A DNA stretch of 64,000 nucleotides from Octopus vulgaris (taxonomy: Eukaryota): contig OX597814.1 of assembly GCA_951406725.2 (NCBI GenBank), forward strand, positions 140,430,001 to 140,494,000, given 5' to 3'. Under the pieces are notes generated by a model. It saw only the letters and a program-made list of their open reading frames with translations. It was not told where the DNA came from and did not search any database. Shown piece by piece: positions 7,971 to 35,391 of the stretch; the first letter of the stretch is position 1, and the number at the start of each line of letters is the position of its first letter. The position numbers were made by a program, and so were the translations under genes.

Positions 7971-8082
7971 AATTTTTTGCATTATGAGATAAAAAAAACA
8001 ACATTTATAGATATCTATAAATGTTCTGATATCTACACAGACTTGGTATTTTATCTCATTACGCAAAAAATTCTTATATACA

Positions 8083-8222
8083 CATGCTGACATATGACCA
8101 ACGTTGAACCCCTTATTCGCAAAATCACCAAGCCTGGAACTTAACTATGGTCTGTCTATAGCACTTATTCAGCGTTACCTGACACCTTTGGGTCTCAATG
8201 ACACCATTACCCCTTATAACCT
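8083..8222. repeat. ~140 bp dispersed repeat, second copy at 15070-15210
   Basis: Shared cttaactatggtct...tagcactta.tcagc.ttacctgacacctttgggtc...gaca.cattacc; both copies end in (TA)n. Confidence 0.8.
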
Positions 8223-9831: not shown

Positions 9832-11250
9832 CTAGCACTATGACCCAGCATTGCTGGGTCTAGCGCTAGTGCTTGTTGTTCATTGCTGGGTTGCAGTAAA
9901 AAAGATTTCTCACTAAATCAAGAGCTAAGTTTCTTATCACATTTCAGCCCAGGCCAGTTTTGTTGTTTATGAGCTAGTTGGAGCTTTTTATGAGACTAAT
10001 TAATATTCATTGAACTTCAGTTTTCACGTAATCATGGAAAATTAGCAAGAGTGTGCACATGCCATTAGTCGGACAAAAAAGGAGGCAGAAGAAAGCAAAA
10101 AACTCGAATTTGGCCTCAAAATAGCATGATTTTGAAAATACACATAAATCTCGTTTGTTGAGTTTTGGTTTCACACCCAACCCAGTTCTGCACAATCAGT
10201 GTCGCGATGGAACACATGGGTTGTGAGTTTGACTGGCAGAGGTGATCAAGTTGCACATGTCAGCCCTTTTGACACCCTCCTTCACCTAACCCCCTCATCC
10301 TATAAGTGAATAGCAATGGTGGGAAGAAAAGTGCTGATTCCGGCGAAAAGACAGAGCAATTAGATCACAAAAAAGAGCATTCCAAGTGATTTTATGAGTA
10401 TGACACATTGTAGCAAGTAACGTAGTAAGGTCAATAGTTATAAGTTCATGATGCACAGAAGCACATAAGACATCAAGGTTAACTAAGGTATAAATAATAG
10501 GTATGCCTTTTCACCAGACGGCTAATTGGGCTCCCAATCCACTGAAACGGAGGAGGTTAGGTTCGGAACACAACAAAGCCTTCAACTAAAACCTAGACTA
10601 ACCTTATGGAAGGGGGCTCGGGAGCTTCTAATAGGCAGCCTCTAATCCCGATCTATCACTAACCCATCCTAGGGGTGCTAAATGACATGGCTGTAGAAGA
10701 ATTTGGCTGTGGTGATGTGCATGGCAGGTTTGTTTCAGAGGAGGATGACTGCATTGGATTAAGGACCATTGAAGAATGTAGCTTTGGAGATCCTAACTCG
10801 TTAATTATTCCCTGCATTTCTCAAATCAAAAACCGTGCACGTTTGAAAGCCTAAACACATAACATGTCTTTGCAAAACACAAATATGCACTGAGCCATAC
10901 AGACTGTCTGCAAATGCACACGCGCATTCAACTGTCAAGGATAAAATTATCTCCGTCCAATCAAGAAACAGCTGGCAGTCTATTGGTGTATTTAGCCGTA
11001 CGCATGCACCACGTACAAATTTCTATGTTTTAGCGATTTTGAACAGATATGCCCATAACTTATGGGCATAAGATGTCGGTTTATCGATTTTTTTAATGGC
11101 TTTCTGGGGTGACAGGGGAAATGAAAAGATCTTCACGACCACCCTCAGACAGTTTTGAAAGCCCATAGAAAATGCAAGCCTTTTATGTGAAAAACTGTGG
11201 ATTTGTATAAAGGACAGACAGATACATAGACATTTTGCCATTTATATATA
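9832..11250 (-). mobile_element. Non-autonomous Helitron, family 1 (long copy)
   Basis: 3' end CTAG at 9832 with GC hairpin gacccagc-att-gctgggtc. 5' end (minus strand) tatatataaatggcaaaatgtct. Both ends match the short copy at 12896-13250. Inserted in (TA)n. Confidence 0.8.
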
Positions 11251-11252
11251 TA

Positions 11253-12097
11253 CTAGCAGAATTGCCCGGCGTTGCTCGGGGCTGAATTGCTTGAAAGTAC
11301 TGTTAATGATTGCACTGAATTATGATGATTATTCAGGCAAATATTGGTATAAGTTTACGGTGGGAGATAAGGACTTAACGATCAAACGTGTGCCATTGCA
11401 TTGTTTTGGGGGAACCAAATTTCTGATGAGCATTATAGGGGCACCAACTTTAAGTTTGAGAAAGTGTGGTGGTAGTCCAGGGTGCTCAAAGGAATTGAGT
11501 ACCTCTATTGGATAGTTGATGACGTCCTCTGGGTCAGGAGTTGTATCGATAGACTGATATACATAGACTTCCCCAGGAATGAGTTTTAGCATTTCATCAT
11601 TAATATGGTGAACAGTTTTATTCCTCAGGGCCAGTATAGCCTTTTTGCCAATCCAATCCATATTCTGATAATTAGCTTGTAGATCTGGGAACACTGCATC
11701 TCTGAGATCAGAAGACGTTTTAACAATGTTACAAATGGAATCGATGGCAATATTACCATTTTCATCCCCTGGTATTTTGCCTTCGCCAAGTGCAAGGAGG
11801 GTGTGAGGAAATGCTGCTGATGTGATATTACGTCGCATATGAGCACGCATATTGGTGTGAAGTTTGAGAGTTACTTTCCTTTATTAAAAAAAATATGCAT
11901 TAAAATGGAAAAAAATGATGGTAAATTATTTGTAAAATCATAGACTCATCGTAGATGCGCGCTAATACCCAGAAGGGCTCGATATGAATCACGACTATAA
12001 GATACCCGGTTTTGGTTAAACTGCATCGCAAAATGTGGGAGTAGTTAGGAATCTAAATCGGAGTAGACAGACACACAACCTTTCTTTTATATATAAA
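11253..12097 (-). mobile_element. Helitron, family 2, deletion derivative with helicase fragment
   Basis: 3' CTAG at 11253 preceded (minus strand) by hairpin cccgagc-aac-gccggg. The 5' part 11866-12095 matches 13760-13996. Confidence 0.9.
11329..11868 (-). pseudogene. Helitron RepHel PIF1-like helicase fragment
   Basis: LHTNMRAH...LLALGEGK...AILALRNKTV..IN...Y.SID...YPIEVLNSFEHPGLPPHFLKLKVGAPIMLIRNL..CNGTRLIV are typical Helitron PIF1 helicase C-terminal motifs. Truncated on both sides. Confidence 0.93.
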
Positions 12098-12099
12098 TA

Positions 12100-12891
12100 T
12101 TTTCGTCCTAAAAAACTTTGTATGGATTGAATGGTTACCTCTATGGAAATATATACACGCACATTATACATACATGTGTGTATAAATGAATATATAAATA
12201 CATTTAAATATCTATATACACTTTTGGGCGATCTTTCTGTTTCTTAGAGATAACTTTATCCCGTCCGATTCGCTCCAAAATTTACAGGGACATGTAGAAT
12301 GAGGTGACGATGCTCGTGGGCTACCTTAGAAATCCCTATCTTAAAAGGTGTGGTTGCTAGGGGCCATCTTCCTCACTCACCCTATTTCCTCCAGTACCCT
12401 TTCACTCCTCTTCATTTGACAAGCCACTACGGTTATTTAATATAAAGTCTTCCTCAAATCACTCTCTCGCTATTTACTCTCTTCCAAGAACATTTTCACT
12501 CACTCTTATCTCTTAGCTTCCCATACATTTTACTCATGTATCTGTCAGCGTCATAGACAGAAACAAATATTACATCGCCATCGCCATCGCATTCTATTGT
12601 CTACCTGTCAACACACACACAGTGAATTACTTTCACTTTATTCGTTGCACACTATGTGTGTGCGTGTGCTGTAGACCACACTAAGAGAAGCATTTGACTC
12701 AAACACCACAATGTGAGTTTTCTATAAATTTTGCTTAATTGGGGTTGAAATTTTAAAAAGTGGACCTGGCAAAACCCGATGCATTCTACTCTTAAAAATG
12801 CTAGGTAAATTGTAATTGAAGAAATCCTATATTGTAGATTTCTATAAGAGACAAAGGGAGGCAGATAAAATCTGCCTTTTATAATAAGAGA
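12100..12891 (-). mobile_element. Helitron family 3, 5' portion
   Basis: Minus strand begins TCTCTTATTATAAAAGGCAGA, a Helitron-like 5' TC plus AT-rich start. ~12690-12891 is nearly identical to ~14865-15066. No own CTAG end seen; left boundary uncertain. Confidence 0.65.
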
Positions 12892-12895
12892 TATA

Positions 12896-13250
12896 CTAGC
12901 ACTATGACCTGGCAACGCTGGGTCATAGTACTAGTGCATGCATATACAGCTGCGTACGTGCACACATACATGTGAGTACTGTCCAAATCTCCGACCAATC
13001 ACATACAGCTAGCTGGCATTCAATTGGCGTATCAAATTTCAGGCATTTTGATTGGGTTTTGGATAGAAAATTCCCCAAAAATCACTTCTATTGATTTTTT
13101 AATGGCTTTGCTGGATGACTGAGGAAATGTAAATATGTGCACGACCACTCTTGAACAGTTTTGAATGACCATAGAAAGTGCGAACCCTCTAACTGAAAAA
13201 TTGTGTATTTGTATAAAGGACACACACACAGACATTTTGCCGTTTATATG
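12896..13250 (-). mobile_element. Non-autonomous Helitron, family 1 (short copy)
   Basis: CTAG at 12896 with palindrome actagcactatgacc...ggtcatagtactagt. The 5' end gacattttgccgtttata matches 11230-11245. Confidence 0.8.
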
Positions 13251-13595
<345 letters not shown>

Positions 13596-13599
13596 TATA

Positions 13600-13996
13600 C
13601 TAGCAGTATCGCCCGGCGTTGCTCGGGTTTGTAAGGGAAATAACTATATAAGCATTTTTAGAGAGTTATAGCCAAAAAATAGGAAAAAAATGCATTAAAA
13701 ATGGAAAAAAAATTAAGGTAAATTTCTTTTTAAATCGTTGACACATCGTAGATATTTTTAGAGAGTTACTTTCCTTACATAATAGCAAAAAAAATGCATT
13801 AAAATGGAAAAATATGATGGTAAATTTTTTTAAATTGTAGACTCATCGTAGACGCGCGCTAATACCCAGAAGGGCTCGATATGAATCACGACTATAAGAT
13901 ACCTGGTTTTGGTTACACTGCACCGCAAAATGTGGGAGTCGTTACGAATCTAAATCGTAGGAGACAGACACACAACTTCACTCTTATATATAAAGA
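13600..13996 (-). mobile_element. Non-autonomous Helitron, family 2 (short copy)
   Basis: 3' CTAG at 13600 with the same cccggcgttgctcggg hairpin as 11265. 5' TCTTTATATATAAGAG at 13996. Internal ~100 bp tandem duplication (~13655-13850). Confidence 0.88.
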
Positions 13997-14104
13997 TATA
14001 AGTCACGTAGTTATATACACATACTTTGTTATATACACATTCTTAAAAGAAAATGTTATTTTGAATACAACATTTATAAAGAATAAAATATTTTTTGGCT
14101 TTTC

Positions 14105-14760
14105 TTAACCCTTTCGTTACTATATTTCTGACCAAATTACACCCCTTATGTGTTTCAATTAATTTCTAACGTAATCATAAATTTAGTCTGGTTTCATTAA
14201 ACAACTATAACTTTTTTATTTATCAATATATTAATCTGATTTTTGGAAGATAATTTAATGAAATATTCTCAACCAATTCTACACTATAATTTTTGTCACA
14301 AAGTGACTCTAATTGCAGGTAGATACAGGTAAATTCAACAATATATAAAATTATAAAAATTTTGTTCAAACATTGCTATAGAAAATGGGTTATTAGCTAA
14401 TATTCAATTGGGTATACAACAAAATTTTACGATAGAATTTGTTATTCTGGGTAACTTTCTGATACCCATAATAATATTTATGGCAAAATAGGCCTTAATT
14501 TAATTTAAGGTTGTGGGAAATAACAAACTATCCTTTCTTTCGCTTTGTTTACGTTTAGCATAATGATTTCAAATAGGCTCATTCGAAAAAGTAAAAAGAA
14601 ATAGTTTAAGGCTTTATACTCTTCTGGGAAAGTCTGTGGCTTGGTGCAGTTTCTTCAGAAAAATCACCGAAAGAAACAGTTTTTAAATTTTCACTCCATT
14701 CAGGTACCAATTCATTTTCTTAATCGCTGTCGGATTCACTGTTTTCACTTTAATAGCTGC
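14105..14760 (-). mobile_element. piggyBac deletion derivative with transposase N-terminal remnant
   Basis: TTAACCCTTTCG terminus at 14105. The minus strand of ~14750-14530 reads, with stops and frameshifts, SENSESDSD*ENELVPEWSENLKTVSFGDFSEETAPSHRL/EEYKALNYFFLLFRMSLFEII/YAKRKQ. This resembles the acidic N-terminus and the F-LF...L-E-I...YA block of piggyBac transposases. Confidence 0.55.
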
Positions 14761-14859
14761 AAACTTGCAAAGACAAAGGAGGAGAAGGGTGATAGCGTCA
14801 GTGAAACAGTCGCTCCCTTTGTGTGTGTGTGCGTTTGCGTGTAGTGTATCCCACATTAA

Positions 14860-15066
14860 GAAAAACATTTGACATATACACCAGAATGTGAGTTTTCTCT
14901 AAATTTTGCTTAATTGGGGTTGAAATTTTAAAAACCGGACCTGGCATGACCCAATGCATTCTACTCTTAAAAATGCTAGGTAAATTGTAATTGAAGAAAT
15001 CCTATATTGTAGATTTCTATAAATTACAAAGGGAGGCAGATAAAATCTGCCTTTTATAATAAGAGA
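14860..15066 (-). mobile_element. Helitron family 3, 5' portion (second copy)
   Basis: 5' TCTCTTATTATAAAAGGCAG at 15066; near-identical to 12690-12891. Confidence 0.65.
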
Positions 15067-15589: not shown

Positions 15590-15671
15590 CAAAATATTAG
15601 GGAATAAATCCAAACTTACAGGGAAAAATCAGATTTAGGATTGAATCCAATTTTATAGTAAAATATTATAT

Positions 15672-15918
15672 TATATTAAATTAGAGATAAAACCACTATT
15701 AGGCAAATCATACAATGAAAAACTTAAGCCAATACATAAGATTAATTAATTTATATTATTTAAATATATATCAAAATGATTAAAAAAGATAATTAATATA
15801 ACACAATTATCTTTTTTAATAATTTTGATATATATTTAAATAATATAAATTAATTAATCTTATGTATTGGCTTAAGTTTTTCATTGTATGATTTGCCTAA
15901 TAGTGGTTTTATCTCTAA

Positions 15919-15926
<8 letters not shown>
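15672..15926. repeat. Near-perfect palindrome, ~120 bp arms, 10-nt loop
   Basis: Arms 15672-15794 and 15805-15926, one visible mismatch. Lies between (TA)n tracts. Confidence 0.95.
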
Positions 15927-15991
<65 letters not shown>

Positions 15992-20955: not shown

Positions 20956-21900
20956 CAGACACACCTCATCCTACATCGTTAATTGGTTCCAGGAGACACA
21001 ACTTAAGTCGAAAAATGACTTAAGTTGAATTAACTTGTCTCTAGGCTAGGCTAAGCCGAATTTACTTGTCTCTAGACTAAACCGACAATTACCTCCCAAC
21101 ATAATGGTCATGCGTTCTTTTGAGACCTTGTAGTCTGGAATAGCTTTCTCCTCCTTGGAAATGAATAAATGGTCTGGCAATTTTTTCCAATTCAATCCAG
21201 TTTCGTTTGCATTAAAAATCTGTTCAGGAAGAAGCCTGTTTTCTTCGATGATTTTCTTTAATGCATTAGGAAATTTGGCTGCTGCTTGTTCATCAGCCGA
21301 AGCACTTTCACCTTGCTTCTTAATGGAGTGATAACTTCTTCGCGCCTTTAATCTCATGGACTATCCTTGACTTGCCTTGAGCTCTACATCTTTCTCATCT
21401 GGGTATTTTTTCATCAGGTCCTCAAACAAAGACAATGCTTTCACTTGAAGGATTTCTTGATTAATAGTAGCACTCTGATGATTCAACTTAATCCAAAGAG
21501 GAAGAAAACTTTCCATTTTTTCAAAGATTTTGCCTCTTTTCTTATTGATAACAGTGTTCTTCATCCCTGGGGCTTCAGATTTGATATGTGTTAAAATCTT
21601 GTCCTTATTATGTACAATCATCGATACAGTTGTCCAACTCATCCCAAAAGATTATGCAATTGCTACCAGTTTTTCACCTTTTCCATAGCATTTTATCATA
21701 GCCAGTTTATCTTCCAGCATTATAGCATGATGCTTAGCACTTTCACTATGAATTTTTTTAGGAGCCATGGGGGCAAAAAATAAAATCACAAATGAATGAG
21801 AATGAGAAAGTAACTGATAAACAGAGGTAAACAAATCTGAATTCAAAACAATCACAGGAATCCCGAGTGACAACGACACCTAACAGTAGATATTAGAACT
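20956..21900 (-). mobile_element. Tigger/pogo DNA transposon, internally deleted
   Basis: TA|CAGACACACCTCATC... terminus at 20956 plus the transposase pseudogene. The other TIR was not identified. Confidence 0.8.
21088..21768 (-). pseudogene. TIGD1-like (CENP-B/pogo family) transposase pseudogene
   Basis: Three consecutive ORFs separated only by stop codons join to give MAPKK...IMLEDKLAMIK..GEKLVAIA*SFGMSWTTVSMIVHNKDKI...EKMESFLPLWI...ILQVKALSLF...KASQG*.MRLK.R...GESASAD...QIFNANETGLNWKK.P....SKEEK...KVSKERMTIMLGGN. That is HTH-psq, CENP-B HTH and the start of DDE_1, with the catalytic D changed to N. Confidence 0.93.
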
Positions 21901-34179: not shown

Positions 34180-35391
34180 TGTGTACAGTGCTCAGGTGCA
34201 CTACAACTCATCTAAAGTGTATATATATAATCAGGTGTAGTTTCGGCGGATTTCGGAAAGCATGAGGGCCTTAAAGGATGTAGTGTCATGGCAGTCAACA
34301 ACTGACGCAGGCAGTTTATTCCATGCTTCAGCAACTCTGAGCGTGAAAAAATGTTTCCGAAAGTCATGGGAGCTGTGTTGTTTTCTGACTTTGTAGGCAT
34401 GTCCACGTGTGTTAGACACATGGAGATCAAAAAGGTGTTCAGTGTTGTTGTTGGTGAGGTGGTTGATAACCTTGTGGGTGTTTACCAAGTCTGTCGCCAG
34501 ATGCCGGAGCTTCAGTGAGTCCATGCCCAGGGAAACAAGGCGCTCAGAATATGGTAGGTGTCTGATGGAGGGTATGCGTTTGGTTGATGAACTGAAAACC
34601 ACCGTTGTGTAAGATCCATCTCAAAGTGCCCGAGAATTATCATTGCTGCTTGGTGTTAGCAAGCAAACAATATTGGCTCACCTAGTTCAAATCAGTAAAG
34701 TGAAAAAGGTGGATAAGTGGGTTCCACATGAACTCAGTGAAAATCAGAAACAGTAATGCTTAGAAGCTTGCATTATGCTAATTTCTCGAAACAAAAATGA
34801 ATCATCTTTGAATTGAACTGTAACATGTGATGAGAAATGGATCCAATACAACAACTGTAAACATTCAGCGCAATGGCTGGACAAAGACAAGTCACCAAAA
34901 CACAGTCCAAAAAGCAAAATTCATCAAAAGAAGCTGATGGTGTGTGTTTGGTCTGGCGCAGATGTGATCCATTATGATTTCATAAAATTGGCTCATCAAT
35001 CACAGCCTAAGTATACTGCAGCCAACTGAACCAAATGATGCAGAAACCTACAAAAAAAACAGCTTAGATTAGTCAACAGATCCACTTGTATTTTATTGCA
35101 AGACAATGCCAGACACCACATCACAAAAATGACATTGGCAAAACTACAGGACTAGGAGTTGGATGTTCTCCATCACCCACCATACTCACCTGATCTTGTC
35201 CCCACTGATTCTTTCAGAATTTGGAAAACCTTTTGATAGGAAAAAAATTTAATTTTGACAATGCTGTAAAACAGGCCTTCCAAAATTTTATTGATTCTAG
35301 ATTGCCAGGCTTTTACAGTTCTGGGCTGGAGAAGCTACCACTGAAATGGCGAAAGTGTATTAACAATATGAGTGCATACTTGGATGAATAA
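33931..35391 (+). pseudogene. Mariner transposase pseudogene
   Basis: MDKSEI...QTVSNWFAKFRSGNF...KVDN[LINE]DELK...KWVPHELSENQK...VTCDEKWI...KKLMVCVW...LQDNARHH...HHPPYSPDLVPTD. The WVPHEL and YSPDL motifs are diagnostic. Several stops and frameshifts. Confidence 0.93.
34133..34584 (-). mobile_element. 5'-truncated CR1-type LINE 3' end with (TTA)n tail
   Basis: ORF TKRIPSIRHLPYSERLVSLGMDSLKLR...DL...K....NTRGHAYKV......RKHFFTLRVAEAWNKLP matches the C-terminus of CR1/L2-group ORF2. The (AAT)n at 34133-34179 is its tail. Confidence 0.9.

What the first reader, a model, noticed from the sequence alone, without database searches (positions are those of the whole stretch)
9832..15066. Helitron train: three families, same strand, in the same order twice
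Seen: on the minus strand the order is fam3-5'(15066) > fam2(13996-13600) > fam1(13250-12896) > fam3-5'(12891) > fam2 with helicase(12097-11253) > fam1(11250-9832). There are four hairpin+CTAG 3' ends, and two junctions are only 2-4 nt apart (12891/12896 and 11250/11253). Family 3 shows a 5' TC end twice but no 3' end of its own. Established: Helitrons insert at A|T without a TSD and can read through ends to form composites. Inference: either a tripartite composite Helitron moves as a unit (fam3 start, borrowed fam2 or fam1 terminator), or each family targets the TATA-rich end of another, giving an ordered self-stacking array.
Basis: partly seen in the sequence, partly recalled or inferred. 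Interest (0 to 1): 0.72.

Follow-up and report, generated by a model that had tools for sequence, protein, structure and literature searches.

The report
Helitrons stack at a polar target
Four separate rolling-circle transposons sit in a row on one strand here, and across this genome their relatives often land seven or eight bases before a short ATAAA box that their own front ends also carry, which likely makes them pile onto one another facing the same way.

Summary
The termini are real but the parsing is wrong. There are four non-autonomous Helitrons, not six parts: B (15066-13600), D2 (~13262-12896), A (12891-11253), D1 (11252-9832). 'Fam3 start + fam2-type end' is one fixed element: 27 of 29 B hits and 14 of 29 A hits are full length at 96-99%. 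Autonomous RepHels with the fam3 start and A's own CTAG end exist. No tripartite composite recurs.

The self-stacking idea holds. These Helitrons insert at A|T with ATAAA starting 7-8 nt downstream: 31 of 72 non-microsatellite sites against 0.55% background, and 15 of 35 in a second sample. Their 5' ends carry that box. Genome-wide there are 969 head-to-tail junctions against 10 tail-to-tail. Neighbouring units are randomly assorted subfamilies in no fixed order. Target reading by the transposase's 5'-end pocket is inferred; an age-polarity test gave no support.

Nested and tandem Helitrons are known. I did not find the spaced motif in ten searches, but three key papers were unreadable. The scan's earlier notes showed no match.

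The parts
13600..15066 (-). Element B: non-autonomous Helitron, 1467 nt, A|TC ... hairpin-CTAG|T; fam3 start, with an intact ~400-nt fam2 mini-Helitron as its fixed 3' part (TC at 13996). ATAAA lies at +8 in its 3' flank.
   Evidence: 27 of 29 other top hits full length at 97-99%; nearest copy 98.9%; flank; both flanks align across the site to an older repeat at window 8047-8138 (75%)
13354..13599 (.). Short inverted-repeat (MITE-like) spacer. Its TA-rich left end supplies the ATAAA box at B's landing site.
   Evidence: A 21-nt arm occurs at 13360 (+) and 13588 (-); MITE label is my inference
13263..13353 (.). (TA)n(TG)n(TA)n microsatellite
   Evidence: sequence
12896..13262 (-). Element D2: short fam1 Helitron (~360 nt); 5' TC lost in the TA tract, start uncertain within 13254-13262; strong hairpin-CTAG end
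   Evidence: 40 relatives at >=85% cover, best 92.8%; hairpin z -5.0
12892..12895 (-). TATA spacer between D2's CTAG and A's TC, read as the part of D1's TA-rich 5' end left upstream when A inserted
   Evidence: sequence; comparable TC-bearing stubs upstream of A-type elements elsewhere; reading is inferred
11253..12891 (-). Element A: non-autonomous Helitron, 1639 nt, internal-deletion derivative of a fam3-start RepHel; carries a ~240-nt fam2 5' piece (12100-11863) and the helicase tail. ATAAA lies at +8 in its 3' flank, which is D1's start.
   Evidence: 14 of 29 other top hits full length at 96-98%; 92-93% at the 5' end and 96-99% at the 3' end to RepHel loci L407 and L417; flank
11329..11880 (-). 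183-codon open frame: passenger fragment of a RepHel helicase (Pif1 2B)
   Evidence: all 150 scored genome matches are 96-100% identical
9832..11252 (-). Element D1: long, older fam1 Helitron (1421 nt), no TC start left, strong hairpin-CTAG end, 3' flank (TA)n
   Evidence: 11 relatives at >=85% cover, best 90.0%; hairpin z -5.8

Best explanation
The locus is four separate non-autonomous canonical Helitrons, and it likely built up by successive insertions because this genome's Helitrons often land at A|T with an ATAAA box starting 7-8 nt downstream, a one-directional motif that Helitron 5' ends also carry. Shown: the element boundaries, the motif, the strand bias, and mixed subfamilies in trains. 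Inferred, route 1: a newcomer inserts at or a few bases inside a resident's 5' end and faces the same way because the motif is polar. Inferred, route 2: with no target duplication the downstream half-site survives behind a resident's CTAG, so a newcomer can also join there. Inferred: flanking (TA)n tracts erode a resident's leading TC and turn its start into an exact +8 target. Inferred enzyme step: after nicking, the target's T-strand is held by the RepHel like the element's own 5' end, so one binding surface reads both. Likely local order: D1, then D2, then A into D1's start, with B landing independently 340 nt upstream.
For: Motif: among the first 100 exact fam2-type ends on contig C1, 98 are followed by T. 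Of the 72 not starting (TA)5, 31 have ATAAA at +7/+8 against 0.55% of 6684 local AT sites (AT-matched expectation 0.9; shuffle mean 3.3, maximum 11 in 10,000); second sample 15 of 35. The rule appears for fam1 (4 of 7), fam2 (9 of 20), fam3 (27 of 66) and RepHel copies (3 of 8 non-TA flanks). The motif is host sequence: an uninterrupted 94% paralog of the L200 site carries it. Polarity: 325 + 516 + 128 head-to-tail junctions within 15 nt against 10 tail-to-tail sites; about 0.3 of the 325 class expected by uniform chance. Register, by my hand count of the first 100 listed rows: ATAAA at +8 in 78 fam3 junctions; at +7/+8 in 73 fam1 junctions. Route 1: 6 of 17 A-type-to-fam1 junctions keep the resident's TC-bearing stub upstream of the newcomer, against 2 of 100 control starts (p 9e-5). 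Two 98%-identical fam1 copies were each hit at the same base by different subfamilies (L383). TC-shortened starts: 9 of 18 in long TA tracts, 2 of 75 elsewhere. In the window, A and B follow the +8 rule exactly, and nearest-copy identities are 90.0 (D1), 92.8 (D2), 98.5 (A), 98.9 (B).
Against: The motif is a preference: 41 of 72 non-microsatellite sites lack an exact ATAAA at +7/+8, and 28 of 100 sites are (TA)n. Donor starts mostly carry the box at +10 or +12, not +7/+8, so strict mimicry of the 5' end does not fit. 74 of 100 fam2-to-fam2 junctions sit at the full-length start (+10; hand count), which needs route 2 or concatemers. Route 2 needs a G|T nick, seen in only 2 of 168 insertions outside a Helitron end. 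Age polarity in trains gave no support: upstream younger in 10, downstream in 17 of 27 (p 0.73). Several trimmed-start junctions have no upstream stub (5 of 6 fam2 cases where the first unit's start was visible; L333 and L339). D2 and D1 sit in TA tracts and do not fit the exact rule. All evidence is from fixed genomic copies of one assembly.
Confidence: 0.72

Rival explanations
1. Rolling-circle concatemers or circle-into-circle multimers make the head-to-tail trains before integration; target choice plays no part.
For: Exact CTAG|TC junctions match the circle junction shown for Helraiser (PMC4778049, passages). 4 of 14 adjacent fam2 pairs are >=95% identical against 4.4% of 747 baseline pairs. 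Many trimmed junctions lack upstream stubs.
Against: Fam3 neighbours are the same subfamily no more often than chance (3 of 28 against 96 of 946). The window's four units differ in family and age. Stubs and the +7/+8 motif at solitary insertions are not explained.
Confidence: 0.12
2. A composite (fam3 start, fam2 or fam1 terminator) is moved as one unit by 3' read-through.
For: Read-through is shown for Helraiser (PMC4778049, passages). B itself is a fixed fam3-plus-fam2 composite. L196, L333 and L339 look like moved two-part units with no stub.
Against: 0 of 38 junction partners is D1. Pairs of the same type at different loci are only 90-99% alike per partner, not clonal. B is 340 nt from D2, and both flank junctions are unique among 418 loci.
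Confidence: 0.05
3. The elements merely share a taste for (TA)n microsatellites, and opposite-strand neighbours are later purged as inverted repeats.
For: 28 of 100 sites start (TA)5 against 8.8% of background AT sites. Most fetched fam3 trains lie in TA or TATG tracts. Opposite-strand neighbours exist (L058, L218).
Against: The +7/+8 peak was measured after removing (TA)5 sites. Junction spacing is sharply fixed, not spread along the tract. Fam1 and fam3 share little sequence, so purging would not act on such mixed pairs, though it could thin the fam2 tail-to-tail control.
Confidence: 0.11

Closest known systems
Helraiser / Helibat1, canonical HLE1 Helitron (PMC4778049: passages and section 10 read; PMC5876387: passages)
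   Same: 5' TC, 3' hairpin-CTAG, A|T insertion without duplication, exact head-to-tail junctions, AT-rich preference strongest on the 3' flank
   Different: The text reports only an AT-rich zone of about 20 bp. Here a spaced ATAAA at +7/+8 is measured and tied to self-stacking. The Helraiser logo figure is not held, so it may already show such a motif.
Maize Helitrons that insert near or inside other Helitrons and gain multiple termini (PMC3288121 and PMC12477314, passages; the primary Yang and Bennetzen 2009 papers were not held)
   Same: Helitron-on-Helitron clustering, nested origin of composites, internal termini
   Different: The passages read give no target motif or base-precise register. 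Here internal CTAG ends are mostly intact and junctions are exact.
Self-inserted composite FoHeli of Fusarium (PMC5148889, passages)
   Same: Self-insertion gives chimeras with several 5' ends
   Different: Non-canonical termini; target given as a short upstream motif; few cases rather than hundreds
Tandem Helitron arrays attributed to rolling-circle concatemers (as summarised in PMC11934779 and PMC5876387, passages)
   Same: Head-to-tail CTAG|TC arrays
   Different: Trains here are short, dispersed and made of mixed subfamilies

Membership tests
Canonical Helitron (HLE1) | 5' TC start | tested here: met
   A and B start A|TC. D1 and D2 have lost it, but family copies start TC.
Canonical Helitron (HLE1) | 3' CTRR with sub-terminal hairpin | tested here: met
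   CTAG at all four ends; hairpin strong for fam1, present but weak for A and B
Canonical Helitron (HLE1) | Insertion between A and T | tested here: met
   159 of 168 complete elements not preceded by a Helitron end sit at A|T
Canonical Helitron (HLE1) | No target site duplication | tested here: met
   84 of 107 non-TA sites have zero flank overlap, 99 of 107 have 2 nt or less; clean empty paralog for L200
Canonical Helitron (HLE1) | Cognate autonomous RepHel with shared termini | tested here: met
   L406, L407, L417 share A's termini; Helitron_like_N, HUH and two-tyrosine motif in L407, whose frame ends before the helicase. A second group with fam1-like starts has 1549-1744-aa frames, with PIF1 in L409.
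Canonical Helitron (HLE1) | Transposition through a circle | not testable with these tools
   needs extrachromosomal circle sequencing
HLE2 / Helentron | Terminal inverted repeats and T|T insertion (PMC11417382, passages) | tested here: not met
   T|T in 3 of 205 complete elements; ends are TC and CTAG
Rolling-circle concatemer array | Adjacent units are copies of one element | tested here: not met
   3 of 28 fam3 pairs; none in the window; a minority excess among fam2 dimers, 4 of 14
Tripartite composite moving as a unit | The same joined partners recur at other loci | tested here: not met
   0 of 38; 0 of 418 loci for the B-flank and spacer-D2 junctions

The most novel reading that the evidence does not exclude
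Canonical Helitrons have a real, polar target sequence, an A|T nick with an ATAAA box 7-8 nt downstream, read by the same transposase surface that grips the element's own 5' end. This makes every resident Helitron, and every site it leaves behind its 3' end, a landing pad, and explains Helitron-on-Helitron clustering, mixed trains and the birth of composite families in general.
Probability: 0.35. Interest if true: 0.72.

Novelty: new variant of a known kind. Interest (0 to 1): 0.5.

Why it matters
Helitron targeting is usually described as 'AT in AT-rich DNA', and the reported tendency of Helitrons to land near or in each other has no mechanism in the passages I read. A measurable spaced motif, present at about 43% of non-microsatellite sites and about 80-fold over background, gives a direct biochemical test and a way to predict insertion sites. 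It also warns annotators that same-strand Helitron trains are stacks of independent elements. The locus itself is ordinary; the genome-wide rule is the part of value.

Tried and rejected
Age polarity of trains by nearest-neighbour identity: no signal (10 against 17 of 27, p 0.73). A post hoc split gave downstream younger in 11 of 14 intact-start junctions (p 0.057), which I do not count. Insertion at TC|TC inside long fam3 starts: rejected, since no first unit in the 23 array loci carries an extra TC and 92 of 100 starts follow A. Protein search for the autonomous parent with the helicase fragment was saturated by A copies; Pfam PF14214 then worked. Empty-site search: 114 of 205 joined flanks hit something, but most were microsatellites or self-matches and the output was cut, so only single clean cases are used. 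Sequencing runs for presence/absence alleles were swamped by repeats. One contig each in X1 and X17 skips B, with sides of 21 and 24 nt, too short to count; raw run X20 gave 6 reads. Three other window frames had no Pfam match. Literature: ten searches found no spaced Helitron target motif; the Helraiser structure paper and both Yang and Bennetzen 2009 papers were not held. Figures and supplements were not seen and may bear on novelty.
Full report
Observation. A Pif1 2B helicase fragment lies at 11329-11880. The genome is 2.8 Gb in 227 contigs. 'Octopus' is my recall from its SINEs and from earlier notes, not a call result.

Parsing. Searching with the first 192 nt of the 12891 start returned 29 other loci; 14 align to all of 12891-11253 at 96-98%. 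Searching with the unique middle of 15066-13600 returned 29 other loci; 27 are full length at 97-99%. So A and B are single elements. Of 70 position-ordered fam3 starts with enough downstream sequence, 67 reach a fam2- or A-type end. Of 20 fetched RepHel loci, 3 begin with the fam3 start and end with A's terminus, and A's last 620 nt match them at 96-99%. Thirteen others begin with a fam1-like start. Fam2 also exists alone as a ~400-nt element. Fam3 therefore has its own end, and the 'fam2 with helicase' is a RepHel tail behind a 240-nt fam2 piece. B is separated from D2 by about 340 nt of an inverted-repeat element and microsatellite.

Composite test. I fetched 20 of the 21 other A-type end-to-fam1 junctions among the first 100 listed (128 in all) and used 18 further loci from that search. 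None has D1 as partner; most partners are the ~360-nt subfamily. In 28 directly adjacent fam3 pairs, neighbours are the same subfamily in 3, against 96 of 946 between loci, and 17 ordered type pairs occur, the commonest 6 times. There is no fixed order and no clonal composite for this train. A few loci (L196, L333, L339) do look like two-part units that moved together.

Target motif. The genome holds 25,634 exact fam2-type ends and 3,662 exact fam3 start 21-mers. For the first 100 ends on contig C1, 98 are followed by T and 28 begin (TA)5. Of the other 72, ATAAA starts at +7 in 16 and +8 in 15, and at most 3 at any other position. Background is 0.55% of 6684 local AT sites; the AT-matched expectation is 0.9 and 10,000 within-flank shuffles reach at most 11. 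A second sample gave 15 of 35. The rule appears in fam1, fam2, fam3 and RepHel copies (these sets overlap the samples above). An uninterrupted paralog of the L200 site carries the box, so it is host sequence. A and B in the window both have ATAAA at +8.

Stacking. Within 15 nt of a fam2-type end there are 325 fam3 starts, 516 fam2 starts and 128 fam1 starts on the same strand, and 10 opposite-facing ends. These 10-mer patterns include a few non-Helitron matches (L320). Among the first 100 fam3 starts, 11 neighbours within 3 kb are same-strand and 2 opposite, against 0.4 expected. By hand count of the first 100 rows, the box lies at +8 in 78 fam3 junctions and at +7/+8 in 73 fam1 junctions, but 74 fam2 junctions are at the full-length start (+10). 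In 6 of 17 A-to-fam1 junctions with a visible start, the resident's first bases are left upstream of the newcomer, against 2 of 100 controls, which shows insertion into the resident's 5' end. Starts shortened by TC occur in 9 of 18 long TA tracts and 2 of 75 other contexts.

Mechanism. Shown: boundaries, motif, polarity, mixed trains, stubs. Inferred: two routes to same-strand stacks, at the resident's 5' end and behind its CTAG; erosion of TC by TA slippage; and reading of the target by the surface that binds the 5' end. The last rests on the HUH model in which both the element's 5' T and the target's T become linked to tyrosine (PMC4778049, passages). Against it, donor starts mostly have the box at +10 or +12, G|T insertion is rare outside Helitron ends (2 of 168), and the age test did not resolve the growth direction. 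Concatemers may explain some fam2 dimers (4 of 14 at >=95%).

Comparison. These are canonical HLE1 Helitrons. Nesting, self-insertion and tandem arrays are described (PMC3288121, PMC12477314, PMC5148889, PMC11934779; passages only). Helraiser prefers AT-rich DNA on the 3' side (PMC4778049, section 10 read). The wheat paper reports AT preference (PMC13286980, passages). Also read as passages, without bearing on the motif: PMC13282606, PMC3789558, PMC4067079, PMC11417382. Ten searches found no spaced motif, but three key papers and all figures were out of reach, so novelty is provisional.

Verdict. The train is four ordinary insertions. The rule behind it, a polar spaced target shared with the elements' own starts, is well supported in this genome and directly testable. 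Interest 0.5; new variant of a known kind.

Noticed in passing
L409-L416, L419-L423 (e.g. G000:C4:115355300-115365200): A RepHel family with long open frames (up to 1727 aa in these loci, STPR + Rep + PIF1 in L409) and fam1-like starts; many near-equal Pfam scores suggest it is young. Starts vary in the number of leading TC and TA units.
   Followed up: partly
L372, L379, L382: Fam2 starts preceded by one or two extra TCT units, one on a solitary copy. Self-insertion stubs may become new 5' ends, which would explain the stuttered starts of all three families.
   Followed up: partly
L383 (G000:C4:83839500-83847500): Two 98%-identical fam1 copies in a local duplication, each preceded at the same base by a different fam3 subfamily.
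   Followed up: yes
L196 and L208: Two different fam3 elements sit at the same position of paralogous host repeats, with ATAAA at +8.
   Followed up: partly
window 12098-12258: A 161-nt unit, single in A, is present in 2-3 tandem copies in many relatives.
   Followed up: no
L002, L004, L018, L340, L346: Fam3 elements inserted at the internal fam2 start inside A-type elements (window equivalent 12098), again with ATAAA at +8 where the far flank was seen.
   Followed up: partly
window 15663-15938: A 276-nt near-perfect palindrome (95% arms) between TA tracts; a relative at L133/L268 is interrupted by a fam3 element.
   Followed up: no
window 21046-21360, 34231-34620, 613-921: Short frames that look, from recall, like transposase and LINE remnants; no Pfam match at E 0.01.
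   Followed up: partly
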